Shown here piece by piece: positions 5,783 through 30,322 of a stretch of 64,000 nucleotides of DNA. Within the stretch, counting starts at the first letter, position 1, and the number at the start of each line of letters is the position of its first letter. This DNA is from Pirellula staleyi DSM 6068 (GTDB lineage Bacteria; Planctomycetota; Planctomycetia; Pirellulales; Pirellulaceae). The stretch lies in the NCBI GenBank assembly GCA_000025185.1, contig CP001848.1:1671699-1735698 (forward strand). The letters run 5' to 3'. A program made the translations under genes and the position numbers. Below the pieces are notes generated by a model. The model did no database searches. It saw only the letters and a program-made list of their open reading frames with translations, and had not been told where the DNA came from.

Positions 5783-5818
5783 CCGCTTCTGACGGATCGG
5801 AGCGAGATGTGTGAGCTC

Positions 5819-15942: not shown

Positions 15943-15990
15943 GAGCCTGTATTTCGAGCCTCAAACGCTTGTAATACAGGCTTTTTTGCT
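15943..15990 (+). terminator. Rho-independent terminator after glmS.
   Basis: gagcctgta...tacaggct stem followed by ttttttgctttc. A second hairpin ccgagcagc/gctgctcgg lies at about 15900-15930. Confidence 0.55.
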
Positions 15991-16065: not shown

Positions 16066-16123
16066 CTAGTCCCTAGTCCCTAGTCCCTAGTCCCTAGTCC
16101 CTAGTCCCTAGTCCCTAGTTCCC
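16066..16123. repeat. Tandem heptamer microsatellite (CTAGTCC)x7 plus one imperfect unit.
   Basis: Read directly: ctagtccctagtccctagtccctagtccctagtccctagtccctagttccc. Confidence 0.9.
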
Positions 16124-16153
16124 AGCCTCTGGCTTTCTCTCGCCTCTCGCCTT

Positions 16154-16181
16154 CTCTGGCCTCTGGCCTCTGGCCTCTGGC
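16154..16181. repeat. Tandem heptamer microsatellite (CTCTGGC)x4, preceded by degenerate units.
   Basis: cttctctggcctctggcctctggcctctggccgc immediately before the giant-gene stop (tta at 16185-16187). Confidence 0.9.
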
Positions 16182-16183
16182 CG

Positions 16184-16937
16184 CTTAGAGGCTGGTGTCT
16201 TGGGAGTTGTTGAAGTCGCCGCGGATGTCGCTGGTGAGGGGGTCGGCATTGGTGTGGGTGCCGAAGAGATCGTTGCCGCTGCCACCGTAAACGGTGTCGC
16301 GGTCGAGGTCGTCGGTGTGGGTGAGATTCGGGGCGACCGGGCCGCCGCTGTTCCAGGCCACCAGCAGCGCGAGCATCGCGGCATCGACCGCGCTGCTATA
16401 CGTGTTGCTCGTCGCCGTGTCGCTCGTCCCTTGGTAAGTGGTGATCGCCGCGAGCACCAGGTCGTTGCCGTTGCCGCCGTCGACCAGATCAACGCCGTCG
16501 CCGCCGATCAGTACGTCGTTGCCATCGCGGCCGTACAGCCGATCGTCGCCATCGCCGCCGCTGAGGAAGTCGTCGCCGACATCGCCACTGATCGTGTCGT
16601 TCCCCTGCGCGCCGTAAATGCGGTCGTTGCCCGAGCTGCCACTCAGCTGATCGTTGCCGTAGCCGCCGTGGATCCAGTCGTCACCCGCGCCAGGGCTCAC
16701 ACTATCGTTGCCGCCACCGGCGTAGAAGAGATCGTTGCCGCCGAGCGCGCTCAGCGTATCGTTACCGCCGATGTTGAGCTCGTGCGGATTGAGCTCGTCG
16801 CTCGTCGGAGCGTCGTCGCCCCAGACGATGTTGTTGCCGCTGCTGGCATTGATGCGATCGTTGCCGAGACCACCGACCAAGAGGTCGTTGTTGAAGCTGC
16901 CCGTCAGGAAGTCATCTCCCGCTTCACCGTAGAATTC
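16184..16937. repeat. Perfect inverted copy of window positions 1-754 (at least 754 bp; mapping x <-> 16938-x).
   Basis: Identical translated ORFs in three different frames: 58-753(+) = C-terminus of 16185-28646(-); 446-838(+) = 16115-16492(-) for 103 aa; 6-203(-) = 16735-16932(+). The revcomp of 16881-16937 matches 1-57 when checked directly. Identity breaks at 755/16183. Confidence 0.9.
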
Positions 16938-19900
16938 CGCCGGAATCTGCAGGTTCGATTGGTTGATGATGTCGTTGCCGCCGCGGCCGTAGACGAGCGT
17001 CTTGCCAGGGACGTTGTGGTACGTGTAGCTCGAGCCGATCTGCACGCGAGTGCGGCTGGGTTCAAGCGTCGTGTTGGCGCGAGCGAACTGAATCGTGTCA
17101 TTGCCATTGGTGCCGCGGATGTAGATGTCATTGATCGTGGCGCTCGTCATCTCGCCATCGTCGGCCAAGTTGAGATCTTCGATCGTGGTGAAGGTGACGG
17201 TCGCGTGCGTCGAGCTCAACACTTGTCCGCTGCTCACGAGCACGGGGCTCGTCGCGGCGAGTCCACCGCCGAGCGCCGAGACATCGATGTTCAGCACATC
17301 GCCCGGCAGCACCGAGGGATCGTTGCCGTTGATGAAGAAGGGGGTCGTGAGGCTCGGGCGAATCATGTCATCGACGCCGTCGAGTTCACTGGCGCTCAGC
17401 AGATAGCCAGGCGCGGTGCTCGATGGTGTGCCGCCGAAGGTGTCGTCGCCAAGACCACCGTTGAGGGTGAGCCGTGCGAGGAAGTCAGCTGCGTTGACGT
17501 AGAACTGATCGTTGTCTCCGGCACCGGTGACGACGGCGGTATCAAGGTCGTTGGCCGCTTCGGTCATGTTGACGCGGATCGTATCGGCGCCGCCCGACGT
17601 GGTGACATCGAGATCGTCGATGCTCGTGAACGTGATGTCGATTCCCGACGCGATCGTGAGCCCTTCGATCGTGGTGCGCGTGATGACGACGGAGTCGGCC
17701 GACACACTTCCGCTGTCGACGACGATCAGCGAGTCGTCGTCCCCGGCAACGCCATTGAACGACAGAGTCGAGGCGATGTTCGATGCGGAATTCCCGCTGT
17801 CAAACACCTGGAACGTGTCGACCCCGATGTCGCCCGTTACCGTCACGGGCACGCCACTCTTGATCGCGTGGATGCGAACCGTGTGAGCGCTGTTGTCGGT
17901 CGCCGCGAGCGACGAACCAGCCACGATATCGATGCTCGTGAGGCTCGACGTGCTGTCGATGTTCACCAGATCAATCGCTTCGTTGCCGCCACCCGCGATG
18001 AGGTCGAGCGCGAGGAAACCTTCGAAGGTGGTCGTCGCGACGAGACCCGTATCGGCGGTGATCTCGGTCACGCCATCAGCTGCTGCACCATCGTCGCTGA
18101 TCTCGATATCGGCAGTGCTCGTGCTGCTCGAAGCATCGACGACGAGGTTGCCACCAGCGCCGTCGAGGATGAGCGTGTCGAGGTCGGCGAAGCTGACGAG
18201 GGTCAGCGGCGCGCCACTCGGCCCCACACCGACGTTGCCACTTCCTTGACCATCGAGGACGTCGCTGAAGTAACCGACATCAGCGGCAGTAAGGAGCTCG
18301 AGCGCGAGGCTGTTATCGCCGAGTCCGCCATCGAAGTGGATCGTCACATCGGTCAGATTGCTCGCGGTGTAGTAAGCATCGGCGGCTATATTCAAGTGCG
18401 CGCCATTGCTCACACCACCCGACGCGAGGCTGTTGTCGACCAGCGGCGCAGCGCCGTCGAAGCTCGGGAGTCCCGCTGCTGTTTCGCGAATCGTCAGCGA
18501 CTCACTATCGCTGCTACCGATCACCGTGAAGCTGTTGATCGTATCGGCCTGGCCACTGAACTTGCCGAGGCCATTCACCTCGACTTCGAACACGTTCGGT
18601 GCACTCAGGAAGATCTCGATCGCGTCGGCCGCGCCGTTCTGGAAGCCGGCGATTCGCATGTCGAGCACGAGGTTGTAGACCGACGTCAGCGGCGTCGTTT
18701 GCACCGTTTCAATCGAGCTATACGCAACCCCTGCCGCCGACGCGCCGAACGACCAAACGCCGCTGTAGTTGACTGCGCCGAGCGTCAATGTCGGCACGCC
18801 GAGTCCCGTGATATCGAGCACTAAAAGATCGCCCGCAGGCATCGTCGGATCGCCACCAAAAATGCTGATCGGTGTGCTCGCGAGACCATTGTCTTGATCG
18901 GGCCGGACGTTGAACGTATCGATCTCCGCGCCGCCGGTGAACGTCGCGCTCACCGCGTCGATATCCCCTGCAAAGCTCAGCGTCGCGCCACCCACATCCG
19001 CACTCGCCGCATCAATCGTCACGCTGACGGTTCCCGTCGCGCTGATCGTGCCGCTGAGGGTCGCATCGTCACCTGCCAGCAGCACCACATTGCTCGTCGA
19101 GCTGAGTGTGCCACTGACGATGATGTCGTCGTCGGCAGCGCCGGTATCGGTCACCGCGAGGTTCACCGCGCCGGCGGCATTGATGCTCGTGACGGTCATC
19201 GTGCCGGTCGCCGAGGTGATGTCGACGAGACCGTTGTTGGTCGTGATGCTTGTGAGCGTGATGGCGCTCGCTTCATCGATGTCGATCGCGCCGGTGCCAG
19301 TGACGCTGGCGGTGAGCGTAGCGATGCTCGTATCGAGATCGATCCCGCTAGCGCTCGTCGCGCTCAGGTTACTCGCCGACACATTGAGCACACCTGCGTT
19401 CGCATCCGTAATCGCCCCCGTCGTCGCCACCAGCGTCGCATCGCCTACGGCCGTGATGGTGGTGACGGCGATGTCGCCACTGGCAGCAGTGAGTGTGATG
19501 TTGCCATTCACGGTCGTTGCGGACGAGACTGCGAGGCCGCTGGTCTCGTTGATGTTGATGTTGCCATTGGTTGCGCCGGTCGTGGAAACGATCAGCGACG
19601 TGATGGTGGTGTCGAGATCGATGGCGTTTGCCACACCGGTGGCAGCCTGCGCGACCAGCAGACCGGTCGCGACGTTTACACTCGCGCCGTTGCCGTCGGA
19701 GATCGAGCCGGTGAGCGCGGTGAGGGTCACAGCAAGTCCGGCGGTGATCGTGTTGTTCACGCTGATCGAACCACCTGAGGTCAAGCTGATCGCACCACCA
19801 GCGCCAACCATCAGCGGACCATCCACTTCGATCGTATCGGCCCCCACTCCCGTATCAATCGTGATGTTCGCATTCGCATGCGCATTGGCACCACTCGTGA

Positions 19901-22900
19901 TGGTGACGCTGTCGGCAGCATCGGAGCCACCCGTCACGGTGTTGATCTCGACAGCGATATTGCCCGAGAGATGAACTTGCTCGAACGCCACGCCGCCGCT
20001 GTTGCCACTCACAACGAGGGCTGGAATTGCGGAGGTGGCGACCGTTGCGCCAAAGCCAGCGCTGATGTCGATCGTGTCGGCAGCGCCACCGAAGTTGACG
20101 ACGGCGCTAGCCAGATTAAACATGTTCACCGGCTCGAGACCACGGAACGTGATCGTCCCGGCGAGGGCATCGGAGGTGATCGTTCCGGCGCGGGCAATCA
20201 CGGCGTCGCTGGTGTACGTTGCCGTCTGCAATCCGGTGCCGACAATCGCCAGCACATCGCCAAACGAGGGATTGCCGCCAGCTGCAACCGGCGAGCCCTG
20301 CCCTTCACCGTCGTAGTAAATCCCTCCGGGGAGCGCGACGTTGATGGCGTTGAGATTGACGTTCAGTGTGTCGTCGGAATCACCGCCGTAGAACGTGAAG
20401 GCGTTGGGTGGTGTCGTCGTCGTGTAACCACCAATCACCGCGCCATTGTTGAGCGAGTAAGTGACGGTGATGTTCCCCGCCCCATCGGCAGCTGTGACCG
20501 TCACGATATCAGCACCCGCAGTGCCGTTAATGATCGGCTGTGAATAGAGCGCAACATCGTTCCCCGCACCTGGCCCCGCGCTATCGGCGCTGTAGCTGAT
20601 GTAGAACGTGCTTCCACCCACCACCACTGCCGCTCCTTCGGCCAGCCCCGCAAACGTCCCCACCACCGCATCCGTCCCATCATTGGTGATGAGGATGATT
20701 TCCTGCAGCGTTAAAGCGTTGGGTGTGAATCCGCCGAGGAGGGAAACGTTCAGCGTAGCGCCACCAAGATTGATGGTGCCGGTGGTGTTGAGTTGATCGT
20801 GAGTGTTCGCGCCACCATCGCCGGGTGTGAGGCCGCCGATTTCGAAGCTGTATACATTGCCAGCCGAACCGACGATGTTGCCGGTGGCGAGCGTTCCGGT
20901 GGTACTGGTGCCAGTCCCTGCAGCGACGAGGCTCGCGCCAGTTCCCGAGAGTGCGCCGACCACGCTACCAGTGCCCGAGAGAGTGGCCGCAGCAGCGACA
21001 TTCACCGAGGAATTAAGAGTTCCGAGGACGCGAAGTTCGCCTGTGCTGACGCTCGTCGAGCCTGCGGAGTTGCCGGCGCCGGTGAGATCGAAGCGTCCCG
21101 CGCCACTCTTGGTGAGTGCGCCGACCACTACCACATTGCCAGAGTTGGAGATGAGTCCCGCTGCTGTGACGGCGAAGTTCGAGCCGATGTTCGTCGAGCC
21201 GAGGTTGATGATGCCGCCGCTGGTGAGCGAGGCTGTTGTGGTGGTCGAGAGCAACGCCGAGGAGACGATGGTGTTGGCCGCCGTGACGCTCACCGAACCA
21301 GCCGTGGTGTTTTGGCTGAAGGTGACATCGTCGCCAGAGGCGATGACGATCGAGCCAGGCGCGCGGCTGTTGCCGACTTGTCCGTTAAAGTTCACGTCTC
21401 CCACACCAGCGGTGATGGTGAGTGGTAGATCGGGGTTGTATTCGAGGATAAATCGGGTCGCTGCACCATTATTGATGGTGAGGTCGTTCCAGCCACCTGC
21501 GCCGATGATTTCCGCGTAATCTTCATCGCCCGACTGGTTCGGTTCGCCCGAATTCCAGTTCGTATAGAAGCCGTTCTGCGCTGTGCCGCCGGCGGTACCG
21601 ATCCAGAAAATGCTTCCTGCTTCAGGGCCATCCATCCAACGCCATGTACTTTCGGTTTGCAGATCCGAGGCACCAATCCAAGCGCGTCCACCACCGAGGG
21701 TCGCGGTGATGGCGGCGTTTTCAGCAGGCGAGGTGATGTTGGCGAGATAGCCACCAGCAGCGAGTGCCGCTGCGCGAGCAGCGGTCCAGGTGATCGGGCC
21801 ACCGGTGTTCACATTCACGTGGTTGCTGGCGATTTGATTCACTGCGCCGCCGAAGGTGACAGCAGCACCCACAGCGCCATTGGCGGTGGTGTTGATGTTG
21901 ACGGCACCAGCGAGACGAACGCCACCGCTAAAGTTGATGGCAGCCCCTTCGGTGGTGTTGCCCCGCGCGACGGTGGTTTCACCGCTGGCGGTAAACGTTT
22001 GGGTGCCGGTGGTATCGACTCCCACCAGGCTGATGTTGCTGCCGGCAAAGTTCACACTCGACAAACGATAGATCGAGCCCATTACGTTGGCGGCCGAGAT
22101 CGTACCCGCACCAGCGTTGACGCTCAGCGACTGTGGCGAAGCGGCATTGAACTCGACGATATAGTTGCGTGTCGAGGTGATGTTCAAATCGTTCCAGCCA
22201 CCCGTGCCGAATTGGAATTCGGCCCCATCTTCGTCGCCCGATTGATTCGGCTCGCCAGTGTTCCAGTTGGCGTAGTTGCCACCCACGGTCGATCCACCAA
22301 CGGCGCCACTCCAGAACTGCACGTTGTTATCGGGACCATCGGCCCAGCGCCAGGCCCCTTCGACAGCGGTGTCATTTGCACCAATCCAAGCCGTTCCCGA
22401 GCCGATGGCGTTGATGCGGGAATTCTCGACAGCCGATCGAATCGAAGCGAGGTGCCCGGTAGTTCCCAGGAAGCTGAGCGAGGTGGCGGCAGTACGAGCG
22501 TTGCTCCAAGTCAGCGCCGAGGCGACGATCTGATAATGGCTCATCGTGTCCACGGTGCCGCCGAACACCACATTACCGCCCGCGGTGTTGATCGTGGTTC
22601 CGCTGAGGACGTTGAGAGGTCCGCTGAACGTCACCGCGCCGCCGCTGGTGGTGTGGGTGGCGCGAGTGATGATCGAGTTCGTCGAGGCAAACGTTTGTGC
22701 GCCGGTCGTGGTGACGTCGTCGACCACGATCAGCGGAGCATTCATCGAAACCGATGTCAGAACTGCGCCGCTACCGATGTTGCCACCGACAATCACCGAG
22801 CTTCTTCCATTGGCGGTCAGGGTGCGAGCCCCGCCGCTGCTGTCGATCGTCGACGCAAACTGCAAATCGTCGCCACTTACGGTGACGTTCGTCGCCAAAC

Positions 22901-25900
22901 TAACGGTCGAGTTGACTGTCAGGTCCGAAATTGTGGCGACATTGCCACCAAAGCTCGTGCTCGCCGCGCTGATCGTCACGTTGTTGAGCGGCTGATTATT
23001 GTCGCCGACTCCCGCGCCAAACGTCACGTTGCTGCTGCCAGTGCTAATCGTCAAGTCGGCTGCAAACAGGCTGCTGCCGTACTCGATGATATAGGCGTTC
23101 GACGAACCGACCCCCAGGTCGTTCCAAGTGCCGTTGGCGATCATCGTCGCCGCATCTTCATCGGGCGAGTTGTTCGGTTCACCGGTGCCGTTCCAGTTGG
23201 CATAGTTGCCACCCACCGTCACGCCGCCCGAGCCACTCCCTGTCCCTTGCCAGAACTGCACCCCTGCGTCAGGGCCGTCGGCCCAACGCCAAGCACCTTC
23301 CACCAAGACGTCGTTGGCGCCGATCCAAACAGTGGAGGTTCCACCAATCGAGCGGACATAAGCGTTTTCAGCAGCCGAACGAATGTTGACGAGATAGCCG
23401 CTCATTCCATCGAGCGTCGAAGCGAGCGCTAGTGCGCGAGCGTTTGTCCAGTTTTGACCAGCGCCGACAAACACATAGCCCTTCAGCGCGCGAACGTTGC
23501 CGGTGAAGCTCACCGAGCCATCGGTCCCTGCCAGCGAGTCGGTATCGAGCACCAGGCTTTCACCAATTCTCGCATCGCCGTTGATGGCAATCGAACCGGC
23601 ATTGGTACCCAGATCGGTGCTAATGTTGGCCGAGATTTCCGTGCGCTCGGCATTGATCGTCAGGTTGCCGGTGTTGGCAGCGTTGCCGAGTCCCAGTGCG
23701 CCGGTGATCCGCACGATATCGCTCGCGCCGTCGCCGTTGATCGTGACAGCCGACCGCAGATCGGAGCCAGGAGCAACCGTCAGCACTCCAGCATCGGCCC
23801 CCATGTTGATGGTGAGCTGCTGAGTCGGAACGCTAAACGTGGTGACTTCGAAGGTCGGAGTTCCGTTTTGACTCCGCAGACGGATGAGCCCGTCCCCAAG
23901 CAGTCCGTTATCTTCCAAGATCGCTTGGTCGCTGGTCCCCGGGAGATTGAAAATGGCGATCGCTGGCGAGGCATCGAAATCGGTGAGGACCGGTTCGAGG
24001 CCGGTGTAAGTGATCAGCGTGCCGTCGATGCTGATCGAGCCATCGGTGGCGTTCACATAGTTGTAGGTGACAGTGTTCGGGTTTCCGCCGAGCACTTCCA
24101 AATCGTCGCCATCGACACCTTGTGTGTTGCCATGGACGGTGATGGGAAGAGCGAAGATCCCGCCCGATGCGGTGTAGTCGATCACGAAGTCGTCGTCGCC
24201 ACCTTGGCCACTGATTTCCAGCGACGAGAGTTGCGACAGCGGAGTGTTGATCGTCAGCACGTTATCGATGAAGACTTGCAGATTGCCGCCACTGGTTTGA
24301 ACGCGGAAATCCTGGTCCAAATTGGTGCCGACCACGGTCGGAGTTTGATCGTAGGCGAGCGTCACGCTATTCGCGCCGTAGGTCAGCTGCATCGGCGCGC
24401 CGTTGATCACGACGAGCCCACTGGTGGGATAGTTGGCGAAAGTGCCACTGATGCCGCCAGCTGCCGAGACAAGCGTTAAGGTGTCGCCTGGGACAGGAAC
24501 ATAGCTTCCGGACAGCTGCAGGGTTGCGCCACTCAGAGCGATCGCGCCGCTGCTGCTGAGCGCGTCGTAGCTCCCCGCAGTGTTGCCGCTGATCACCAGT
24601 TCGACGATGCCAGTGGAGCTAAGCGCGGCACTCCCAACCGACAGCGTTCCGGTGGGATTGCCGGGGGCCACGGTCGAAAGCGCTGCTGCGGCAACCGCAC
24701 CTGCAATGGTGCCGGTCCCTTCGAGTCGCGCGCCGCTGGCAACGGTGACGTCGGTGGCAGCTGCTCCATCGACGAGCGAGCCATTCACGCGCAGCGTCCC
24801 TTGCGAAACCGTCGTGACGCCGCTGAAGTTGCTGCTGCCACCCAGCGTCAGCACGCCGGTCCCTTGCTTCGTGAGGAAGTTGTTCCCCAAGAGCGAAATC
24901 GAGAGAGCGGCCGGATCGATCACACGCCGACCAAACGGATTGGTGCCATCGAGCTGCTGCCAGAAGGCCTGCACTCCCGAACCGCCATTCCCTTCGTAGT
25001 ACGTGATTTCGATATCGTGCACACCGGCGGTCAAGACGATATCGCCTGTGCGTGTCGTCATCCCTTGCGAGAAGTTGTTGTCGACAACCTGCGTGCCATT
25101 GATGAAGAGCTTGCTACCGTCGTCGCTGCGGGTGCCGAAGCGGTACGTCGCATTTTCGGGAACGGTGATTTTTCCGACCCAGCGGCCACCGATGTTGTCC
25201 GCTCCAACATTCACGCCAACGCCTGCATAGACGTTGCCGTTGCTGCCGCCGCGCTCGATCGTGCCACCGAGTCCCGAGGTAATCTCCGTGCCGATACCGA
25301 AGTCGACAAAGCGGGTGAACTTGGTGGTGGGAAGCAGCGTGACGAGCTGATTGGGAAGCGCCACGGTGCCGGGCGAATTGAGCAGCGTGGTGGCCGAGCT
25401 GGGGAATGCGGGGGCGATCGAAGCGGCGTTGAAATACTGGCCGCGCAGACCACCGGGAACAAACGTTCCGGGCGTCGCGATGTCGTTGAGCAGCACGCTC
25501 GAAGGGATGATCTGCCGCGCGAACGACTGACTGCCAGCGCTCAATTGCCAGCTCGCTTGGATACCACCATTGCCACCACTGTCGAACGCTGCGATCAGGA
25601 TGTCGTAATCACCCGGGGTGAGATAAATGGTGCCGCTGCGGTTAGTCATCCCTTGCGCGAAGTTGTTATTCACCACTTCGCGACCATTGATGAAGAGCTT
25701 GCTTCCATCGTCGCTGCGGGTGGTGAATTGATAGTGGCCAGCCACCGTAATGCGGATCCGACCTTCCCAGTAGGCCGCCATGTCGTTGCCGACATTCACC
25801 CCAATGCCACCAAAGAAATTGCCGCTGCTGTCACCACGATCCAGGATCGAGCCATTGCCTGGAATGGTTTCTGTTCCACCACCGAAGTCGATCGTGGGGG

Positions 25901-28646
25901 TCAGGTAGTTGGCAACGGTGGGGATGTAGGACTGTAAGTTGATCGGCGTCGAAGCGACGTTGATCGGATTGAGGAACGTCGTAGCGCCGCCAGCACCAAG
26001 CGCGTAGTACTCGCCACGGAGACCCCCTTGCACATTGGCTGAGCTGCCGAGTCCCGTCACGTTGCCGGTGACGGTGGTGTTGCCACTTCCCGAGACGCGA
26101 AGACCCGAGAGTCCGACATCCATGCTGCCGATCGTCAGGCTCGTCCCATCGTTATGAATTCCCATCGTGCCACGATCGACGATCGCAGCCTTCACAGCGC
26201 CAGGGAGCGAAGTGCTTCCCGAGAGAATCACCAGTCCGGTGTTGCCCGCTGCGGCGACATTGCCGAGCGTGATATCTTCCCCAGCGCCAAAGGTCAGATT
26301 CCCTTGCAGCGCCAGCGTTGCGCCGTCACTCACGTAGGTGTCGCTCGTCGTGGTGCCGAGCGCGGCACTCGTTGTGGCCACGAGCGTTCCCCCTGTCACA
26401 CGTGTCGGTCCGCTATAGCTCGAGCCGGTGCCAGTGAGGGTGAGCGTTCCGGTGCCATGCTTCGAGAGACCACCATCGATCGTGCGCAAACTGGTCGCGC
26501 CACCACCGGCGGTTTCGCTCGGCGAGGTGTAGAGCAGGCCATCGACGGTGCTGGTGCCACTGTCGCTGATACCAAAACCAAAGGTCAATCCGAAGTTATT
26601 GGCAGGCACGGCACCACCGTCGCCACCACCATCGCCGAAGCGGATTTCGATGTTGTGCCAGCCGTCCCCGTTGGGGCCCATGCCAAGGTTCAAGCGACCG
26701 GTGCCGGTAGGTGTGCCAGCGTTGGTGTCGCGCAGGTAGAGAGCGCCGTCGATCGTGATCCGGACGTTGTCGTCCATCGATTCGGCAAACGAGACGATCC
26801 CATCGGCGTCGAAGAACTGACCGGTATAGACCCAAGTGACGTTATCGTTGAGCCAGTAGATGCCGGGGTTTCCGCCGACGCGCGACGTCGCATTGCCAGC
26901 CGGTGTGCCGAGTCGTTGCACGGTGCCAGGATTCGGGCTGGTTTCGTCGAAAGCGCCTGCGAGGAGCCCTTCGAGCAAGCCTTCCTGCTCGTAGCCCAGC
27001 ACGTTGCCGCTTACGAGAGTATTGCCGCTGCCGTCGATCTCCAGTTCAGCGCCGCCGCGAAGTGTGATATCGCTGGTGAGGTTCAGCTGCGACCCAGCAT
27101 TGGTGATCATCGCCTGGCCCAGCGCGGTGATCGGACCGGCGATGGTGGAGGTGCCACTCGCGAGGCGAATTGCGCCGTTGAGGTTGTTGCCACGCCCGTT
27201 GATCGAAAGGGCTTCCGAGGCGGGCAGATTCAAACCTGCAGCGACCAGCAGTTGGCCACCCGCTTGCACCAGCGTATCGCCGTCGCCTGAGCCGAGGGCA
27301 TTGTTACTCGTGATACTGACGACACCCGCATTGATGCGCGTCAAACCGACGTAGTTATTGCCAGTTCCGGCGAGGGTGAGTGTGCCGCCACCGTTCTTGA
27401 CGATGCCACCATCGGGCGTGCGCAAGCGCGTGGCGGTTCCATCGATCGTCTCTTCGAGCTTCTGCAGATCGGCGACGTTGCCATTCACGGCCGGATTGCC
27501 ACTTTCGCTCCAGGCAAAACCGTAGGTGCTGCTCCAACCGGTGAAACCGTTGGTGCTGCCACTCGCACCAGCGCCACCACCACCGTTGCTGAAGCGGACC
27601 TCGATATCGTGCCAGCCATCGCCGTTGGGACCCATCCCCAGGTTCAGCGTGCCGGTGCTCGTAGCGACATTCCAGACGCTGTTGTCGAGTCGCACGACCC
27701 CATCGATCACCACGTAGGTCCGGTCGTCGATCTGCTCGGCAAAGGCGACAACACCATCGGCGTCGTAGAACTGACCGTTGTAAACCCAAGTGGTAGTGCC
27801 AGCCCACGGCGCGACGGAGTTGGCAAACATCTGGCCAAAGCGGAAGCCGTTGGTGAGACCACCATAACCGGCGTAGATCGAGGTGCCGTTGTTAGCCGCG
27901 AACGACATGTTGCCGCTTTGCGAAGCTTCAAGCAGACCCTCTTGATAGCCGCCCAGTACGTTGCCCGTGATGTTCGTGCTGCCGTTGCCCGAGACCGTGA
28001 GAGTGGCAAATCCGAGGGTGACGTTGCCACTGATGTTATGCGTACCGGCGTCGACATTGATGGTGCCGGAGGTGGCGAGCGTGAGCGGGGTACTGATGGT
28101 GTTGCCACCTAAATCGTCGTCGATAGCGGTCCCGCCACCAAAATTTTGGGCATCGAGGATGAGCGGATTTCCGCCGAGCGAATAGCCGGTCCCTGTGAAG
28201 CGGAGGGCGTAGCGGTTGGTCGACAGCGTGTCGTTGAACTGCGTGAAGTTGGCGGCAGCGGCCGGGAAAACGAGAACGTCGCCATCTTGCGGCAGCGTGT
28301 TGGAGTCCCAGTTGGTGTTGGTTCCCGAGATCCCCCCGTTCCAGTTGCCATCGACGTCGCCGACCCAGGTGAGAGTGGCGAGCACTTCGCGGCGCTCGAG
28401 CGTTTCGAAGAACATGCGGCGCTTGGAGGCCAGAGTCGACTTCTTCTCACGACGGTCGCGGGGATTTTTAGCGCGAAGCGAAGCTGAACGACGATCGAGT
28501 GAACCTGAACTCATGAGCGAAACTCCAAGCTGCAAATTGACGGAGCGCGATCGACAGCCGCAGCGCGGTGGCTTTCCGAGGAAAGTAGCGACTGCGAAGA
28601 CGATCTCGCCGAAAATTTCCACCCCAGGAGTTCTGTTGCACTTCAA
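16185..28646 (-). CDS. Giant (about 4100 aa) secreted adhesin-like protein: autotransporter-type beta-strand repeats, 4 PA14-like domains, 3 cysteine-poor C-type-lectin-like domains, a long Thr/Ala/Ser/Gly-rich beta-helical repeat region and a C-terminal RTX Ca-binding beta-roll.
   Basis: One uninterrupted 12.4-kb ORF. PA14-like: DDGSKLFINGREVVNNNF...GDYDILIAAFDSGGNGGIQASWQ. CTLD-like: WIGANDVLVEGAWRWADGPD...NYANWN.GEPN...WNDL (x3). RTX: GGNDTL/GGGNDS/GSSGNDRIYG. Likely true start is ATG 28514 (MSSGSLDRR...KRRMFFETLERREVLATL). Confidence 0.85.
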   Translation of the reverse strand: MKCNRTPGVEIFGEIVFAVATFLGKPPRCGCRSRSVNLQLGVSLMSSGSLDRRSASLRAKNPRDRREKKSTLASKRRMFFETLERREVLATLTWVGDVDGNWNGGISGTNTNWDSNTLPQDGDVLVFPAAAANFTQFNDTLSTNRYALRFTGTGYSLGGNPLILDAQNFGGGTAIDDDLGGNTISTPLTLATSGTINVDAGTHNISGNVTLGFATLTVSGNGSTNITGNVLGGYQEGLLEASQSGNMSFAANNGTSIYAGYGGLTNGFRFGQMFANSVAPWAGTTTWVYNGQFYDADGVVAFAEQIDDRTYVVIDGVVRLDNSVWNVATSTGTLNLGMGPNGDGWHDIEVRFSNGGGGAGASGSTNGFTGWSSTYGFAWSESGNPAVNGNVADLQKLEETIDGTATRLRTPDGGIVKNGGGTLTLAGTGNNYVGLTRINAGVVSITSNNALGSGDGDTLVQAGGQLLVAAGLNLPASEALSINGRGNNLNGAIRLASGTSTIAGPITALGQAMITNAGSQLNLTSDITLRGGAELEIDGSGNTLVSGNVLGYEQEGLLEGLLAGAFDETSPNPGTVQRLGTPAGNATSRVGGNPGIYWLNDNVTWVYTGQFFDADGIVSFAESMDDNVRITIDGALYLRDTNAGTPTGTGRLNLGMGPNGDGWHNIEIRFGDGGGDGGAVPANNFGLTFGFGISDSGTSTVDGLLYTSPSETAGGGATSLRTIDGGLSKHGTGTLTLTGTGSSYSGPTRVTGGTLVATTSAALGTTTSDTYVSDGATLALQGNLTFGAGEDITLGNVAAAGNTGLVILSGSTSLPGAVKAAIVDRGTMGIHNDGTSLTIGSMDVGLSGLRVSGSGNTTVTGNVTGLGSSANVQGGLRGEYYALGAGGATTFLNPINVASTPINLQSYIPTVANYLTPTIDFGGGTETIPGNGSILDRGDSSGNFFGGIGVNVGNDMAAYWEGRIRITVAGHYQFTTRSDDGSKLFINGREVVNNNFAQGMTNRSGTIYLTPGDYDILIAAFDSGGNGGIQASWQLSAGSQSFARQIIPSSVLLNDIATPGTFVPGGLRGQYFNAASIAPAFPSSATTLLNSPGTVALPNQLVTLLPTTKFTRFVDFGIGTEITSGLGGTIERGGSNGNVYAGVGVNVGADNIGGRWVGKITVPENATYRFGTRSDDGSKLFINGTQVVDNNFSQGMTTRTGDIVLTAGVHDIEITYYEGNGGSGVQAFWQQLDGTNPFGRRVIDPAALSISLLGNNFLTKQGTGVLTLGGSSNFSGVTTVSQGTLRVNGSLVDGAAATDVTVASGARLEGTGTIAGAVAAAALSTVAPGNPTGTLSVGSAALSSTGIVELVISGNTAGSYDALSSSGAIALSGATLQLSGSYVPVPGDTLTLVSAAGGISGTFANYPTSGLVVINGAPMQLTYGANSVTLAYDQTPTVVGTNLDQDFRVQTSGGNLQVFIDNVLTINTPLSQLSSLEISGQGGDDDFVIDYTASGGIFALPITVHGNTQGVDGDDLEVLGGNPNTVTYNYVNATDGSISIDGTLITYTGLEPVLTDFDASPAIAIFNLPGTSDQAILEDNGLLGDGLIRLRSQNGTPTFEVTTFSVPTQQLTINMGADAGVLTVAPGSDLRSAVTINGDGASDIVRITGALGLGNAANTGNLTINAERTEISANISTDLGTNAGSIAINGDARIGESLVLDTDSLAGTDGSVSFTGNVRALKGYVFVGAGQNWTNARALALASTLDGMSGYLVNIRSAAENAYVRSIGGTSTVWIGANDVLVEGAWRWADGPDAGVQFWQGTGSGSGGVTVGGNYANWNGTGEPNNSPDEDAATMIANGTWNDLGVGSSNAYIIEYGSSLFAADLTISTGSSNVTFGAGVGDNNQPLNNVTISAASTSFGGNVATISDLTVNSTVSLATNVTVSGDDLQFASTIDSSGGARTLTANGRSSVIVGGNIGSGAVLTSVSMNAPLIVVDDVTTTGAQTFASTNSIITRATHTTSGGAVTFSGPLNVLSGTTINTAGGNVVFGGTVDTMSHYQIVASALTWSNARTAATSLSFLGTTGHLASIRSAVENSRINAIGSGTAWIGANDTAVEGAWRWADGPDNNVQFWSGAVGGSTVGGNYANWNTGEPNQSGDEDGAEFQFGTGGWNDLNITSTRNYIVEFNAASPQSLSVNAGAGTISAANVMGSIYRLSSVNFAGSNISLVGVDTTGTQTFTASGETTVARGNTTEGAAINFSGGVRLAGAVNINTTANGAVGAAVTFGGAVNQIASNHVNVNTGGPITWTAARAAALAAGGYLANITSPAENAAITATLGGGRAWIGASDLQTESTWRWMDGPEAGSIFWIGTAGGTAQNGFYTNWNSGEPNQSGDEDYAEIIGAGGWNDLTINNGAATRFILEYNPDLPLTITAGVGDVNFNGQVGNSRAPGSIVIASGDDVTFSQNTTAGSVSVTAANTIVSSALLSTTTTASLTSGGIINLGSTNIGSNFAVTAAGLISNSGNVVVVGALTKSGAGRFDLTGAGNSAGSTSVSTGELRVLGTLNSSVNVAAAATLSGTGSVVGALSGTGASLVAAGTGTSTTGTLATGNIVGSAGNVYSFEIGGLTPGDGGANTHDQLNTTGTINLGGATLNVSLLGGFTPNALTLQEIILITNDGTDAVVGTFAGLAEGAAVVVGGSTFYISYSADSAGPGAGNDVALYSQPIINGTAGADIVTVTAADGAGNITVTYSLNNGAVIGGYTTTTPPNAFTFYGGDSDDTLNVNLNAINVALPGGIYYDGEGQGSPVAAGGNPSFGDVLAIVGTGLQTATYTSDAVIARAGTITSDALAGTITFRGLEPVNMFNLASAVVNFGGAADTIDISAGFGATVATSAIPALVVSGNSGGVAFEQVHLSGNIAVEINTVTGGSDAADSVTITSGANAHANANITIDTGVGADTIEVDGPLMVGAGGAISLTSGGSISVNNTITAGLAVTLTALTGSISDGNGASVNVATGLLVAQAATGVANAIDLDTTITSLIVSTTGATNGNININETSGLAVSSATTVNGNITLTAASGDIAVTTITAVGDATLVATTGAITDANAGVLNVSASNLSATSASGIDLDTSIATLTASVTGTGAIDIDEASAITLTSITTNNGLVDITSATGTMTVTSINAAGAVNLAVTDTGAADDDIIVSGTLSSTSNVVLLAGDDATLSGTISATGTVSVTIDAASADVGGATLSFAGDIDAVSATFTGGAEIDTFNVRPDQDNGLASTPISIFGGDPTMPAGDLLVLDITGLGVPTLTLGAVNYSGVWSFGASAAGVAYSSIETVQTTPLTSVYNLVLDMRIAGFQNGAADAIEIFLSAPNVFEVEVNGLGKFSGQADTINSFTVIGSSDSESLTIRETAAGLPSFDGAAPLVDNSLASGGVSNGAHLNIAADAYYTASNLTDVTIHFDGGLGDNSLALELLTAADVGYFSDVLDGQGSGNVGVGPSGAPLTLVSFADLDTLILDGAGGNLVVDASSSTSTADIEISDDGAAADGVTEITADTGLVATTTFEGFLALDLIAGGGNEAIDLVNIDSTSSLTSIDIVAGSSLAATDNSAHTVRIHAIKSGVPVTVTGDIGVDTFQVFDSGNSASNIASTLSFNGVAGDDDSLIVVDSGSVSADSVVITRTTIEGLTIASGIDITFTSIDDLDVTTSGGADTIRVNMTEAANDLDTAVVTGAGDNDQFYVNAADFLARLTLNGGLGDDTFGGTPSSTAPGYLLSASELDGVDDMIRPSLTTPFFINGNDPSVLPGDVLNIDVSALGGGLAATSPVLVSSGQVLSSTHATVTFTTIEDLNLADDGEMTSATINDIYIRGTNGNDTIQFARANTTLEPSRTRVQIGSSYTYHNVPGKTLVYGRGGNDIINQSNLQIPAEFYGEAGDDFLTGSFNNDLLVGGLGNDRINASSGNNIVWGDDAPTSDELNPHELNIGGNDTLSALGGNDLFYAGGGNDSVSPGAGDDWIHGGYGNDQLSGSSGNDRIYGAQGNDTISGDVGDDFLSGGDGDDRLYGRDGNDVLIGGDGVDLVDGGNGNDLVLAAITTYQGTSDTATSNTYSSAVDAAMLALLVAWNSGGPVAPNLTHTDDLDRDTVYGGSGNDLFGTHTNADPLTSDIRGDFNNSQDTSL

Positions 28647-29282: not shown

Positions 29283-29987
29283 TTAGGGTAGTTCTTTGAT
29301 GTAGATGTTGCGGAAGTAGAGCGTGTTGCCGTGGTTTTGGAGCTCGATCTGTCCGGTGGGGTAGATCGGCTTGTCTCGTTCCCAGTAGTTCTCGAGCGTG
29401 ACATCGGTGACCACGTTCTTGCCGTTGAGCTGGATCGTCACCTTTTCACCCACCATGCGGATGAAGAAGGTATTCCACTCACCCACTGGCTTATCGGCCT
29501 TCACTTCGGCCTGATTGGGGTTCTTTTGGTTGTTCCAGAGGCTTCCCGAGCCCTTGTTGGCACCGAGTTTCCAGAGAGGTTCGTGATCGGTGTCCCAGAT
29601 CTGAACCTGAGGGCTGCCACGGAGATAGATGCCGCTGTCGCCTGCTTTTTCGATCTTCCAGTCGACGTAGAGCTCGAAATTGGCGTAGTCCTTGGCGGTG
29701 CAGAGGCTGTCACCCTTGCCGTCGAACACAATGATGCCGTTTTCCACTTTCCAGTGGTCGCGCATCTTTTGATCGGCCTTCGCTTGGGCAGCGGCGAGAT
29801 CTTCCGGCTTCATCTCGGCGCGGCTCTTAGGATTGCCAACCAATCCCTTCCAGCCGGTGAGATCGACACCGTTAAACAGGGCCGTGAAACCTTCCGGGGG
29901 AGTGTTCAGCTTTTCCTCGGCAGCGGTTGCCGAGCACCAAACACCGAGGGCAACAAACAAACCAGCAAGCGTGAGCAACGAGCGCAT
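29283..29987 (-). CDS. DUF1080 (3-keto-disaccharide hydrolase-like) secreted protein.
   Basis: Start ATG 29987 (MRSLLTLAGLFVALGVWCSA signal). LFNGVDLTGWKG, WKVENGII, DYANFELYVDWK and GDSGIYLRG match the DUF1080 jelly-roll family. Confidence 0.75.
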   Translation of the reverse strand: MRSLLTLAGLFVALGVWCSATAAEEKLNTPPEGFTALFNGVDLTGWKGLVGNPKSRAEMKPEDLAAAQAKADQKMRDHWKVENGIIVFDGKGDSLCTAKDYANFELYVDWKIEKAGDSGIYLRGSPQVQIWDTDHEPLWKLGANKGSGSLWNNQKNPNQAEVKADKPVGEWNTFFIRMVGEKVTIQLNGKNVVTDVTLENYWERDKPIYPTGQIELQNHGNTLYFRNIYIKELP

Positions 29988-30322
29988 GGGCGCAAGCTCC
30001 AAAGACACGAGTAGCAAAGGTGGGATATCTAGCGGAGAGCGATCCACGATGGACCGGTCGCGGAGAGTCTAACGCACTTCCCGGGCGATAGCGAGCAAAA
30101 AAGAGGCCCAAAATCGGCTGAATCACCCTTCCGGCGGCGGCTTCCAATATTCCCGGTCCGCTGGCGAATAGAACGATAACGATCGCCGCAAAATAGGTGG
30201 CGAAAGTTAGTCACTGCTCGATTTCTCGTCTACGATGCAGGGAGATTTCCCAACCTGCGGCACGCAGCAACGCACGGGCTTGCTGCCCGATTCCGCCACC
30301 TCAATTTCGAGGAGGAGAGGCC

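What the first reader, a model, noticed from the sequence alone, without database searches (positions are those of the whole stretch)
16185..28646. 4153-aa surface protein combining four PA14-like and three cysteine-less C-type-lectin-like domains with a C-terminal RTX beta-roll and a Planctomycete-type N-terminal motif
The architecture is unusual. From the N-terminus it runs: a basic segment (RRxxxFETLERREVLA); autotransporter-type beta-strand repeats; two PA14-like modules; two canonical PA14 domains (YEGNGG / DDGSKLFING); three CTLD-like modules (WIGAND..W.W.DGPD...NW..GEPN); about 1500 aa of Thr/Ala/Ser/Gly-rich beta-helical repeats; and nonapeptide RTX repeats. PA14 and CTLD are both carbohydrate-binding folds, so this looks like a glycan-targeting adhesin. 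RTX C-termini usually signal type I secretion, yet no T1SS genes lie nearby and the N-terminus looks like a Planctomycete export motif, so the export route is unclear.
Basis: partly seen in the sequence, partly recalled or inferred. Interest (0 to 1): 0.6.

Follow-up and report, generated by a model that had tools for sequence, protein, structure and literature searches.

The report
Cysteine-free giant lectin adhesin, five-gene family
This is an intact gene of the freshwater bacterium Pirellula staleyi for a 4,109-residue, cysteine-free surface protein carrying seven sugar-binding-type modules; four other giant genes in the same genome share an almost identical tail but carry different sugar-binding heads.

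Summary
The ORF is real and is identical to GenBank ADB16019.1 / WP_012910283.1 of Pirellula staleyi DSM 6068, which starts at ATG 28514 and gives 4,109 aa rather than 4,153.

- **Domains:** Pfam supports two PA14 domains, three C-type lectin domains, PATR repeats and an RTX block. The two N-terminal "PA14-like" modules are supported only by profile and fold comparison.
- **Lectin domains:** They keep the EPN/E/WND calcium-sugar site but have lost all four canonical cysteines. An AlphaFold model scores pLDDT 94.
- **Cysteines:** The whole protein has none, where about 56 are expected.
- **N-terminal motif:** It is the known Planctomycete motif of giant surface proteins.

New here: four dispersed paralogs in the same chromosome share the C-terminal 945-1,500 aa at about 97-100% identity, with patchwork variants that indicate gene conversion. 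Each has a different head: LamG, F5/8-C, PA14/GLEYA, or none recognised.

No type I secretion (T1SS) genes lie in the 64 kb. A published survey predicts one T1SS and no T5SS in this genome.

Best reading: a calcium-dependent glycan adhesin exported unfolded, probably by T1SS. The export route is not proven. This is a new variant of a known kind, of moderate interest.

The parts
16185..28646 (-).
16185..28514 (-). Most likely coding sequence: ATG 28514 to stop codon 16185-16187. 4,109 aa, 411 kDa, pI 4.05, zero Cys. Equals ADB16019.1 / WP_012910283.1 of Pirellula staleyi DSM 6068.
28377..28514 (-). N-terminal basic segment (residues 1-30) followed by the Planctomycete motif KRRMFFETLERREVLA (residues 31-46, window 28377-28424). 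There is no hydrophobic signal-peptide core.
   Evidence: PF07595 is the top hit at 21.4-22 bits, below the gathering score of 25.5. The same motif sits at the same place in all four paralogs.
27411..27950 (-). Divergent PA14-like module A (residues 189-368)
   Evidence: 49% identical to module B. Profile hits PA14 lectin domains of RTX adhesins. AF2 model pLDDT 72 retrieves PA14 folds. No Pfam PA14 hit of its own.
26475..26996 (-). Divergent PA14-like module B (residues 507-680)
27312..27401 (-). PATR (passenger-associated transport repeat) copy, residues 372-401. Further copies lie at 26379-26468 (residues 683-712) and 24786-24875 (residues 1214-1243).
25485..26033 (-). Canonical PA14 domain 1 (residues 828-1010)
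   Evidence: PF07691, 53.8 bits against 24. 46% identical to PA14-2.
24900..25460 (-). Canonical PA14 domain 2 (residues 1019-1205)
   Evidence: PF07691, 64.6 bits against 24
23070..23501 (-). C-type lectin domain 1 (residues 1672-1815): WIGAND, EPN, DED and WND present, no Cys
   Evidence: PF00059, 38.4 bits against 22.6; alignment A4
22140..22559 (-). C-type lectin domain 2 (residues 1986-2125): EPN, DED and WND present, no Cys
   Evidence: PF00059, 38.7 bits. Hits the DC-SIGN CRD at E 3e-8, with the calcium-sugar residues aligned and Cys replaced by G, I and V. AF2 pLDDT 94.1. Foldseek top hits are all animal C-type CRDs, TM 0.70-0.75.
21435..21830 (-). C-type lectin domain 3 (residues 2229-2360): EPN, DED and WND present, no Cys
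   Evidence: PF00059, 39.8 bits
16188..20687 (-). C-terminal 'chassis' (residues about 2610-4109). It is 92-100% identical per 50-aa window to paralogs ADB17518 and ADB16950. From about 2870 it is also near-identical to ADB17731.
16188..19022 (-). Core chassis shared by all five paralogs (residues about 3165-4109). The window protein differs at 3, 12, 25 and 26 positions from the four paralogs over the last 890 aa, and variants are shared in incompatible combinations.
16443..17114 (-). RTX nonapeptide block (residues 3801-4024, about 16 units). One more unit lies at residues 4077-4085 (window 16260-16286).
   Evidence: PF00353, 121 bits on the last 330 aa
16188..16442 (-). C-terminal tail after the RTX block (residues 4025-4109), ending ...DIRGDFNNSQDTSL
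   Evidence: In a 1.84-billion-protein library only the five P. staleyi paralogs match it strongly. The composition of the last 20 aa fits RTX/T1SS C-termini, but the last two residues do not.

Best explanation
The gene encodes a 411-kDa, acidic (pI 4.05), completely cysteine-free extracellular protein of Pirellula staleyi. I propose that it acts as a calcium-dependent, multivalent glycan-binding adhesin.

**Shown**
- The variable N-terminal 2,600 residues carry seven lectin-type modules. These are two divergent PA14-like modules, two canonical PA14 domains, and three C-type carbohydrate-recognition domains.
- The C-type domains keep every residue of the EPN / Glu / WND calcium-sugar site and have lost both disulfides.
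- The modules are spaced along PATR/beta-strand-repeat segments.
- The C-terminal 945-1,500 residues form a common 'chassis': a T/A/S/G-rich repeat rod, an RTX beta-roll of about 17 units, and an 85-residue tail.
- Four other dispersed giant genes of the same chromosome share this chassis at about 97-100% amino-acid identity. Each has a different head: LamG/ConA-like, F5/8 type C, PA14/GLEYA, or none recognised.
- All five carry the same N-terminal RRxFFExLExRxxxAT motif.
- Variants are shared between paralogs in incompatible combinations.

**Inferred**
- Gene conversion keeps the 3' chassis homogeneous because it serves a shared export or anchoring function, while the heads diversify in ligand specificity.
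- The protein is kept unfolded in the cytoplasm and threaded C-terminus first through the single T1SS predicted in this genome.
- The RTX roll folds on meeting extracellular calcium.
- The N-terminal basic-plus-motif segment, which leaves last, holds the protein at the envelope or is recognised by a Planctomycete-specific step.
- The EPN domains then bind mannose-, GlcNAc- or fucose-type glycans, and the PA14 domains bind further sugars, on algal, cyanobacterial or particle surfaces.
For: - **Domain calls above curated thresholds:**
- **Lectin domains:** EPN/E/WND align to DC-SIGN and are conserved across 25 bacterial homologs. The AF2 model scores pLDDT 94 and Foldseek returns only animal C-type CRDs. 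EPN is associated with mannose-type binding (PMC5379193).
- **N-terminal PA14-like modules:** their closest solved relatives are the sugar-binding PA14 domains of RTX adhesins.
- **Cysteines:** zero in this protein and in all four paralogs. The expected count is 56, P about 1e-25. By my own knowledge, T1SS substrates and other proteins threaded unfolded across the outer membrane typically have few or no Cys.
- **C-terminus:** acidic pI; the main RTX block ends 88 aa from the C-terminus; the last 20 aa are rich in D, T, L, I and F and poor in K, E, R and P, like known RTX C-termini.
- **Paralog chassis:** near-identical with four-gamete-type incompatibilities. At positions 3225, 3794 and 4040 all four combinations occur.
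- **Heads:** all of lectin type.
- **Secretion systems in the genome:** P. staleyi DSM 6068 is listed with T1SS = 1, T2SS = 0 and T5a/b/cSS = 0, and most T1SS are split over two loci (PMC4793230).
- **Surface localisation of motif proteins:** PF07595-motif proteins were detected in the SDS-soluble envelope fraction of another planctomycete (PMC8567305).
Against: - No T1SS component lies in the 64-kb window.
- The single T1SS is a published prediction that I could not inspect.
- The protein ends in 'SL', not the [FLI][VAI] typical of RTX T1SS substrates.
- NCBIfam finds neither a T1SS C-terminal target domain nor a retention module.
- The ligand-binding modules sit in the N-terminal half. In a T1SS adhesin that would be the cell-proximal half, the opposite of LapA- or MpIBP-type adhesins.
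- The N-terminal motif has been interpreted in the literature as an export signal, not an anchor.
- Cys-less CTLDs also occur in proteins with PEP-CTERM or T9SS-type ends. Cys loss is therefore not specific to T1SS.
- No expression, localisation or binding data exist for this protein.
Confidence: 0.55

Rival explanations
1. Same extracellular lectin function, but export is directed by the N-terminal Planctomycete motif through a Sec-like or still unknown phylum-specific route. The RTX block would serve only as a calcium-dependent folding or cell-surface anchoring module. In that case the conserved chassis is the cell-proximal anchor and the variable heads are distal.
For: - The motif is described as a putative novel export signal of Planctomycete surface proteins and occurs on most of their longest proteins (PMC8567305).
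- All five paralogs have it at the same position.
- This topology puts the variable lectin heads at the tip, which makes functional sense.
- The C-terminal end 'SL' is atypical for T1SS substrates.
- The tail has no relatives outside this species, so it is not a widely conserved secretion domain.
Against: - The segment has no hydrophobic core, so it is not a classical Sec or Tat signal (sequence).
- The motif scores below Pfam's threshold.
- No machinery is known for it.
- It does not explain the total absence of Cys.
- The genome is listed with no T2SS and no T5SS to cross the outer membrane.
Confidence: 0.28
2. The five proteins are the polysaccharide-capturing fibres, or the tips of fibres, that emerge from Planctomycete crateriform structures. 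They would serve nutrient capture and uptake rather than attachment.
For: - Fibres from crateriform structures bind dextran in two planctomycetes, and the uptake system is uncharacterised (PMC5394234).
- This family offers five lectin-type heads on one rod-like chassis.
- The neighbourhood and genome are rich in carbohydrate-related genes, for example three 3-keto-disaccharide hydrolase-family genes in the window.
Against: - There is no evidence linking these genes to crateriform structures.
- The fibres described are 12-nm pili-like bundles longer than the cell, which suggests polymeric pilins rather than single 400-kDa chains.
- The chassis tail is confined to P. staleyi, whereas crateriform fibres are found across the phylum.
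Confidence: 0.08
3. An RTX cytolysin or toxin, or a classical type V autotransporter.
For: - RTX repeats give a weak hit to the NCBIfam RTX_toxin subfamily, 73 bits.
- PATR repeats are typical of autotransporter passengers.
Against: - The RTX_toxin hit is far below its cut-off of 1000 and covers only the repeats.
- No pore-forming hydrophobic domain or acyltransferase neighbour was found.
- There is no autotransporter beta-barrel domain at the C-terminus.
- The genome is listed with no T5SS.
Confidence: 0.03
4. A decaying or unexpressed giant gene, meaning the long ORF is not made as one product.
For: - No expression data exist.
- Giant genes are costly to express.
Against: - 4,109 codons run without a stop or frameshift in 60% GC DNA.
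- GC3 is 0.74, at the high end of the range for window genes.
- Cys avoidance is maintained in frame, while TGY is common out of frame: 0 in frame against 86 and 169 in the other two frames.
- Functional residues are conserved in all three CTLDs.
- The chassis is kept near-identical in five intact genes.
Confidence: 0.03

Closest known systems
RTX adhesins secreted by T1SS (LapA of Pseudomonas, MpIBP of Marinomonas primoryensis, MhLap, FrhA, SiiE)
   Same: - Giant, acidic, calcium-dependent surface proteins.
- C-terminal RTX nonapeptide block close to the C-terminus.
- PA14-type sugar-binding modules. The nearest solved relatives of the N-terminal modules are the PA14 domains of these adhesins.
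- Repetitive rod between the ends.
   Different: - No N-terminal retention module; a Planctomycete basic-plus-motif segment sits there instead.
- The extender is made of PATR/beta-strand repeats, not tandem Ig-like domains.
- The lectin modules lie in the N-terminal half, not near the C-terminus.
- No adjacent T1SS or LapG/LapD genes.
- C-type lectin domains did not come up as ligand-binding modules of RTX adhesins in the papers searched.
- Five paralogs share one chassis.
Planctomycete giant extracellular proteins with the N-terminal PF07595 motif (Studholme 2004; Tuwongella proteome, PMC8567305)
   Same: - Same phylum.
- Same N-terminal RRxxxExLExRxxLA-type motif after a basic stretch.
- Giant size.
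- Adhesion- and carbohydrate-type domains.
   Different: - The motif scores just under Pfam's threshold.
- This family adds a C-terminal RTX chassis and total Cys avoidance.
- In the papers I searched I found no description of a same-genome family with near-identical C-termini and swapped heads.
Animal C-type carbohydrate-recognition domains (DC-SIGN, MBP-A/C, CD23, CEL-I)
   Same: - Pfam Lectin_C above threshold.
- Same predicted fold, TM 0.70-0.75 (up to 0.9 when normalised to the target).
- WIGxxD, EPN, Glu and WND motifs in register.
   Different: - All four canonical cysteines are replaced by A/T, G/A/Y, I/V and V/I.
- The long loop carries a Gly-rich insertion.
- The domains are embedded in a bacterial rod protein.
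- Related bacterial CTLDs form a series with 4+, 2 or 0 Cys.
Bacterial Cys-less or 2-Cys CTLD proteins from metagenomes (e.g. P0001 with two Cys-less CTLDs + PA14 + PEP-CTERM; 'lectin-like protein' of Candidatus Paceibacterota, P0019)
   Same: 42-56% identity to the window CTLDs, with the same EPN/WND motifs. P0001 also combines CTLD with PA14.
   Different: They are small proteins of 500-1,300 aa with other anchors (PEP-CTERM, T9SS-type C-terminal domains, PG-binding domains). They have no RTX block.

Membership tests
C-type lectin domain (Pfam PF00059, CTLD/CRD) | Match to the family HMM above the curated gathering score | tested here: met
   Three copies at 38.4, 38.7 and 39.8 bits against 22.6
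C-type lectin domain (Pfam PF00059, CTLD/CRD) | CTLD double-loop alpha/beta fold | tested here: met
   AF2 model of CTLD2 scores pLDDT 94.1 and pTM 0.89. The top 50 Foldseek PDB hits are almost all animal C-type CRDs or other C-type lectin-like domains. This is a prediction, not an experiment.
C-type lectin domain (Pfam PF00059, CTLD/CRD) | Calcium site 2 / sugar ligands: EPN (or QPD), Glu, and Asn-Asp of WND | tested here: met
   All three copies have GEPN...DED...WND in register with DC-SIGN
C-type lectin domain (Pfam PF00059, CTLD/CRD) | Four conserved cysteines forming two disulfides | tested here: not met
   There are 0 Cys in all three copies. The positions are occupied by A/T, G/A/Y, I/V and V/I.
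C-type lectin domain (Pfam PF00059, CTLD/CRD) | Calcium-dependent carbohydrate binding | not testable with these tools
   Needs recombinant protein and glycan arrays with and without EDTA
PA14 domain (Pfam PF07691) | HMM match above the gathering score | tested here: met
   Residues 828-1010 and 1019-1205 score 53.8 and 64.6 bits against 24
PA14 domain (Pfam PF07691), applied to N-terminal modules 189-368 and 507-680 | HMM match above the gathering score, or PA14 fold | tested here: inconclusive
   - No Pfam hit.
- hhalign against the canonical pair gives probability 18.5%, E 1e-3.
- The profile hits PA14 of RTX adhesins in the PDB at E 7e-6.
- Two homologs carry PF07691.
- AF2 pLDDT 72; Foldseek PA14 hits at probability 1.0 but TM only about 0.5.
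RTX adhesin / T1SS substrate | Tandem GGxGxDxUx nonapeptides near the C-terminus | tested here: met
   PF00353 scores 121 bits. About 17 units lie between residues 3801 and 4085.
RTX adhesin / T1SS substrate | C-terminal secretion signal | tested here: inconclusive
   The composition of the last 20 aa fits published trends, but the last two residues 'SL' do not fit [FLI][VAI]. No NCBIfam T1SS target-domain hit.
RTX adhesin / T1SS substrate | Cognate ABC transporter, membrane-fusion protein and TolC-like protein | tested here: inconclusive
   None in the 64-kb window. One T1SS is listed for the genome in a published table, but I could not read the rest of the genome.
RTX adhesin / T1SS substrate | N-terminal retention module and tandem Ig-like extender (LapA/MpIBP type) | tested here: not met
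   No such Pfam or NCBIfam hit. The N-terminus is the PF07595-type motif and the extender is PATR/beta-strand repeat.
Planctomycete extracellular-motif proteins (PF07595) | N-terminal RRLxxExLExRxLLA motif | tested here: inconclusive
   It is the only Pfam hit at the N-terminus of four of the five paralogs and the best of three in the fifth (17-22 bits, E 9e-5 to 4e-3), but it is below the gathering score of 25.5. By eye the consensus matches at R,R,E,L,E,R,L,A.
Planctomycete extracellular-motif proteins (PF07595) | Planctomycete origin and extracellular-type domain content | tested here: met
   Pirellula staleyi; lectin, PATR and RTX domains
Type V autotransporter | C-terminal beta-barrel translocator | tested here: not met
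   No autotransporter barrel in Pfam or NCBIfam. The genome is listed with no T5SS.
Diversity-generating retroelement target (CLec-fold variable protein) | Reverse transcriptase plus near-identical template/variable repeat pair | tested here: not met
   No RT among the window ORFs scanned. The longest internal DNA repeat is 70 nt at 81% identity.

The most novel reading that the evidence does not exclude
The five genes form a 'one chassis, many heads' system. Gene conversion between the dispersed, near-identical 2.8-4.5-kb 3' ends keeps a single export-and-anchoring module. The same homology would let lectin heads be exchanged or renewed. The products would be the long-sought glycan-binding fibres or fibre tips that Planctomycetes use to capture polysaccharides at crateriform structures. 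In that reading the N-terminal PF07595 motif is the envelope-retention element of a T1SS-type pathway, not a signal peptide.
Probability: 0.1. Interest if true: 0.75.

Novelty: new variant of a known kind. Interest (0 to 1): 0.45.

Why it matters
- **Export of motif-bearing giant proteins.** This gives a concrete, genetically tractable case for an open question in Planctomycete biology: how the many giant proteins carrying the N-terminal motif leave the cell. Five substrates with one shared C-terminal module face a single predicted T1SS and no T2SS or T5SS. One knockout should therefore tell the N-terminal route from the C-terminal route.
- **Disulfide-free lectin domains.** A textbook disulfide-stabilised animal lectin fold exists in bacteria with all sugar- and calcium-binding residues intact and no cysteine at all. 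Related sequences form a graded 4-, 2- and 0-Cys series. Such domains could be made in the reducing cytoplasm and would be useful scaffolds for lectin engineering.
- **Diversification of glycan-binding repertoire.** The swapped-head family with concerted evolution of the tail is an example of how a free-living bacterium can diversify what it binds. The near-identical tails are also long, multi-copy repeats of a kind that could break metagenome assemblies, although the contig breaks looked at here did not show this.

Tried and rejected
- **Whole-protein homolog search:** timed out, so I searched three pieces instead. None returned a full-length ortholog, and all hits were 1,316 aa or shorter.
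- **Genome-collection scan with residues 1205-1670:** found only a 42%-identical module in another Planctomycetaceae MAG giant protein (L004) and an unrelated hit. It did not find the source genome.
- **Exact look-ups of the giant proteins on contigs:** found nothing. The source was identified through cluster membership instead.
- **hhalign of the N-terminal modules against the canonical PA14 pair:** weak, probability 18.5%. I then used a deeper profile and a structure model.
- **PDB sequence search of chassis residues 3165-3800:** no match.
- **Pfam on residues 2400-3790:** only sub-threshold hits.
- **Supplementary tables of the Tuwongella proteome paper:** no Pfam names to test co-occurrence of the motif with RTX.
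- **Rfam:** no riboswitch or other RNA in the window or upstream of the gene.
- **Promoter and terminator scans:** nothing above shuffle expectation.
- **DGR hypothesis for the CTLDs:** rejected, because there is no RT and no template/variable repeat pair.
- **Contig breaks as evidence for the repeat:** I considered that metagenome contigs ending just past glmS marked the repeat boundary. They come from strains 97% identical in DNA and end in the intergenic spacer, so they say nothing about the cassette.
- **Cys-less CTLDs as a T1SS-specific adaptation:** weakened, because Cys-less CTLDs also occur with PEP-CTERM and T9SS-type ends.
Full report
**1. The observation**

The window has one ORF of 4,153 codons on the minus strand, 16185..28646, starting at a TTG. 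For DNA of about 60% GC, a stop codon is expected roughly every 30 codons by my own arithmetic, so an open frame of this length is not chance. GC3 is 0.74, at the high end of the range for window genes.

The first ATG is at 28514. It has a GGAG 8 nt upstream. The 4,109-aa product from that ATG is identical to a protein in the public collection, ADB16019.1 / WP_012910283.1. That record is named 'autotransporter-associated beta strand repeat protein' or 'PA14 domain-containing protein' of Pirellula staleyi DSM 6068, on a 6,196,199-bp contig.

An independent argument supports this start. The 4,109 residues after the ATG contain no cysteine, whereas the 44 codons before it contain three.

The neighbourhood is typical of Planctomycetes: DUF1559/N-methyl prepilin-like genes, DUF1573, and a PilM fusion.

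**2. Domain content**

| Feature | Residues (from Met at 28514) | Evidence |
|---|---|---|
| PATR repeats | 372-401, 683-712, 1214-1243 | above threshold |
| PA14 domain 1 | 828-1010 | 53.8 bits against 24 |
| PA14 domain 2 | 1019-1205 | 64.6 bits against 24 |
| Lectin_C domain 1 | 1672-1815 | 38.4 bits against 22.6 |
| Lectin_C domain 2 | 1986-2125 | 38.7 bits against 22.6 |
| Lectin_C domain 3 | 2229-2360 | 39.8 bits against 22.6 |
| RTX block | 3801-4085, about 17 units | 121 bits on the last 330 residues |
| Planc_extracel motif | 31-46 | 21.4-22 bits against 25.5, below threshold |

The two N-terminal 'PA14-like' modules get no Pfam hit of their own. A direct profile comparison with the canonical pair is weak (probability 18.5%). 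Other evidence is stronger:
- A profile built from ten homologous modules hits the PA14 sugar-binding domains of RTX adhesins in the PDB. These are an 'RTX protein' at E 7e-6, the Marinobacter Lap domain 6m8m at E 2e-3, and MpIBP at marginal E.
- Two homologs carry a precomputed PA14 annotation.
- An AlphaFold model (pLDDT 72) retrieves PA14 domains of RsgI3, yeast flocculins and MpPA14, at probability 1.0 and TM about 0.5.

I therefore accept 'four PA14-type modules', two of them only at fold level. Residues 2400-3780 are 50% T+A+S+G and have no Pfam or PDB sequence match. Their homologs are named 'beta strand repeat-containing', 'filamentous hemagglutinin' or 'S-layer family' proteins. Calling this region a beta-helix is reasonable but untested.

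**3. The lectin domains**

CTLD2 matches the DC-SIGN CRD at E 3e-8. 'WNTGEPNQSGDEDGAEF..GGWNDLNI' aligns to 'WNRGEPNNVGEEDCAEF..NGWNDDKC'. The EPN, Glu and WND ligands of the calcium-sugar site are all kept, while the cysteines are replaced by G, I and V. All three copies show the same pattern.

The AlphaFold model built on a 25-sequence alignment is confident (pLDDT 94.1, pTM 0.89). Its 50 best PDB neighbours are almost all animal C-type CRDs or other C-type lectin-like domains (CEL-I, collectin-11, CD23, MBP-A/C, a type II antifreeze protein), with TM 0.70-0.75, or up to 0.9 when normalised to the target.

These are therefore genuine C-type carbohydrate-recognition domains that fail only the disulfide criterion. 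They are not unique in this respect. Among 46 CTLDs in the 37 bacterial or metagenomic homologs found, there is a series:
- 4 or more Cys;
- exactly 2 Cys, keeping only the inner pair, in a large Paceibacteria-like group at 53-56% identity;
- 0 Cys, as in P0001, P0026, P0027, P0029, P0030, P0032 and P0034.

The Cys-less ones occur with PEP-CTERM or T9SS-type ends as well. P0001 combines two Cys-less CTLDs with a PA14 domain.

**4. Cysteine avoidance applies to the whole protein**

There are no Cys in 4,109 residues, against 1.37% in the other window ORFs. About 56 would be expected, so P is about 1e-25. TGT/TGC codons are frequent in the two other reading frames (86 and 169) and absent in frame. 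The protein is also very acidic: pI 4.05, with 371 D+E against 120 K+R.

**5. The paralog family**

A full HMMER search with the last 95 residues against 1.84 billion representative proteins found only five strong matches: the window protein itself and four others of 2,976-4,503 aa. Nothing else scored better than E 2e-5.

All five are proteins of the same P. staleyi DSM 6068 chromosome: ADB16019, ADB16950, ADB17518, ADB17731 and ADB18769. The spacing of the accession numbers suggests they are dispersed.

Identity to the window protein is low in the N-terminal 1,800-2,850 residues, then rises abruptly to about 100% at three different points:

| Paralog(s) | Near-identity begins at about residue | Note |
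|---|---|---|
| ADB17518, ADB16950 | 2610 | 92-100% per 50-aa window |
| ADB17731 | 2870 | only 3 differences in the last 890 residues |
| ADB18769 | 3165 | 12 differences in the last 890 residues |

The few variants are shared in incompatible patterns. At positions 3225, 3794 and 4040 all four pairwise combinations occur among the five sequences. This is the signature of recombination or gene conversion, not simple descent.

Other properties of the five:
- All have zero Cys.
- All have the N-terminal motif at the same place. For ADB17518 this holds in the longer RefSeq start.
- The heads differ but are all of lectin type: Laminin_G_3 / ConA-like in ADB17731, F5/8 type C in ADB17518, weak PA14 and GLEYA in ADB16950, only PATR and a weak fn3-like hit in ADB18769, and PA14 plus C-type lectin here.

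**6. Export route**

Of the 42 other ORFs of at least 120 codons in the window, 39 were scanned, and none is an ABC exporter, membrane-fusion protein or TolC; three (2051-2503, 53663-54034 and a third) were not scanned.

However, the TXSScan survey reports that most T1SS are encoded in two loci and predicts T1SS in Planctomycetes. Its Table S3 lists Pirellula staleyi DSM 6068 with T1SS = 1, T2SS = 0, Tad = 1, flagellum = 1 and T5a/b/cSS = 0 (PMC4793230). Five dispersed substrates could not all sit next to one exporter anyway.

Features that fit a T1SS substrate:
- an RTX block ending 88 residues from the C-terminus;
- an acidic pI;
- no Cys;
- a last-20-residue composition rich in D, T, L, I and F and poor in K, E, R and P.

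Features that do not fit:
- the last two residues are 'SL' rather than [FLI][VAI];
- no NCBIfam T1SS target domain or retention module;
- the lectin modules lie in the half that would stay nearest the cell.

The N-terminal motif is the one described for Rhodopirellula and Tuwongella surface proteins and proposed there to be a novel export signal. In that work, 8 of the 10 longest Tuwongella proteins carry it, and 20 of 52 motif proteins were detected, 8 of them only in the SDS-soluble envelope fraction (PMC8567305). It has no hydrophobic core, so it is not a classical signal peptide.

My reading is that both ends are needed and the middle is cargo. This explains why exactly those two elements are common to all five paralogs. 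I rate the T1SS route somewhat more likely than an N-terminal route, at roughly 0.5 against 0.3, but neither is shown.

**7. Comparison with known systems**

In operation, the closest analogues are the T1SS RTX adhesins such as LapA, MpIBP, MhLap and FrhA, with their PA14 lectin modules (PMC6650083, PMC8092209, PMC5550230). Membership of that family is not established. The retention module and Ig-like extender are absent, the T1SS signal is inconclusive, and the order of the modules differs.

In lineage, the protein belongs with the Planctomycete giant surface proteins. Giant genes occur in all planctomycete genomes surveyed, up to 45-60 per genome, and are thought to serve adhesion and carbohydrate binding (PMC5177795; PMC12673574).

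Other families considered and rejected:
- It is not an autotransporter, because it has no barrel and the genome is listed with no T5SS.
- It is not an RTX toxin, because the hit covers the repeats only.
- It is not a DGR target, because there is no RT and no template/variable repeat pair.

**8. Novelty and verdict**

The gene is already in the databases with automatic domain names but, as far as the searchable literature shows, is uncharacterised. The individual domains and the N-terminal motif are known.

What appears new:
- the combination of PA14, Cys-free C-type CRDs and an RTX end on a Planctomycete-motif protein;
- total cysteine avoidance across the protein;
- above all, the five-member family with a near-identical, gene-converted C-terminal chassis and different lectin heads.

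I rate it a new variant of a known kind, interest 0.45. The most novel reading that I cannot exclude is that this family forms the polysaccharide-binding fibres of crateriform structures (PMC5394234). I give that about 0.1.

Noticed in passing
window 16066-16119 and 16125-16182: Perfect heptamer tandem repeat CTAGTCC x7.7, followed by CTCTGGC/CTCTCGC-type repeats. They lie in the 300-bp spacer between the convergent glmS gene and the stop codon of the giant gene. A terminator-like hairpin for glmS sits at 15967-15981.
   Followed up: partly
window 28515-28646: The 44 in-frame codons upstream of ATG 28514 contain 3 Cys, while the following 4,109 residues contain none. This is a composition-based argument for the start codon. 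One database entry (P0077, 4,145 aa) uses the upstream GTG start.
   Followed up: yes
window 29283-30047 (-), 54901-55794 (-), 59091-59885 (+): Three paralogous 3-keto-disaccharide hydrolase-family (PF06439 / DUF1080) genes in one 64-kb window. One of them lies directly upstream of the giant gene on the same strand.
   Followed up: no
window 54050-54856 (-): IS4/IS5-family DDE transposase (DDE_Tnp_1 + DUF4096), next to one of the DUF1080 genes.
   Followed up: no
window 5819-8368 (-): 849-aa protein combining two zinc-ribbon motifs (residues about 130-173) with a C-terminal PilM-like domain (residues 529-845). This is an unusual fusion.
   Followed up: no
window 10133-11407 (-) and 12083-13267 (-): Two neighbouring DUF1559 (SBP_bac_10) genes with prepilin N-methylation motifs. 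They belong to the heavily expanded Planctomycete family discussed in PMC8567305.
   Followed up: no
window 48646-51216 (-), 44778-46253 (-), 2494-3720 (-), 3785-4666 (+): Several sizeable ORFs (856, 491, 408 and 293 aa) with coding-like GC3 and no Pfam match at E 1e-3.
   Followed up: no
L004 about 5475-11817 (Planctomycetaceae MAG JAKFUF010000113.1): Another giant protein, over 2,114 aa and cut by the contig end. It has an N-terminal '...TRLEDRLVLNA' motif and shares one module of about 220 aa (DDD...VIDY...TYTGLEP type) at 42% identity with residues about 1390-1605 of the window protein. That module recurs inside the window protein and its paralogs.
   Followed up: partly
L001-L003 (Logan metagenome contigs from ERR12155856, SRR28423922, SRR28423916): These contigs encode an identical GlmS protein but are only about 97% identical in DNA to the window. 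All three end 41-107 bp past glmS, before reaching the giant gene. They show close relatives of P. staleyi in environmental samples. The breaks are not informative about the repeat cassette.
   Followed up: yes
P0001 (JGI metagenome, 548 aa) and P0019 (Candidatus Paceibacterota 'lectin-like protein'): - P0001 is a small protein with two Cys-less EPN CTLDs, a PA14 domain and a PEP-CTERM anchor.
- A large CPR-type group, which includes P0019, has CTLDs that keep only the inner Cys pair.
- Together with 4-Cys members, they form a graded series of disulfide loss in bacterial C-type lectin domains.
   Followed up: partly
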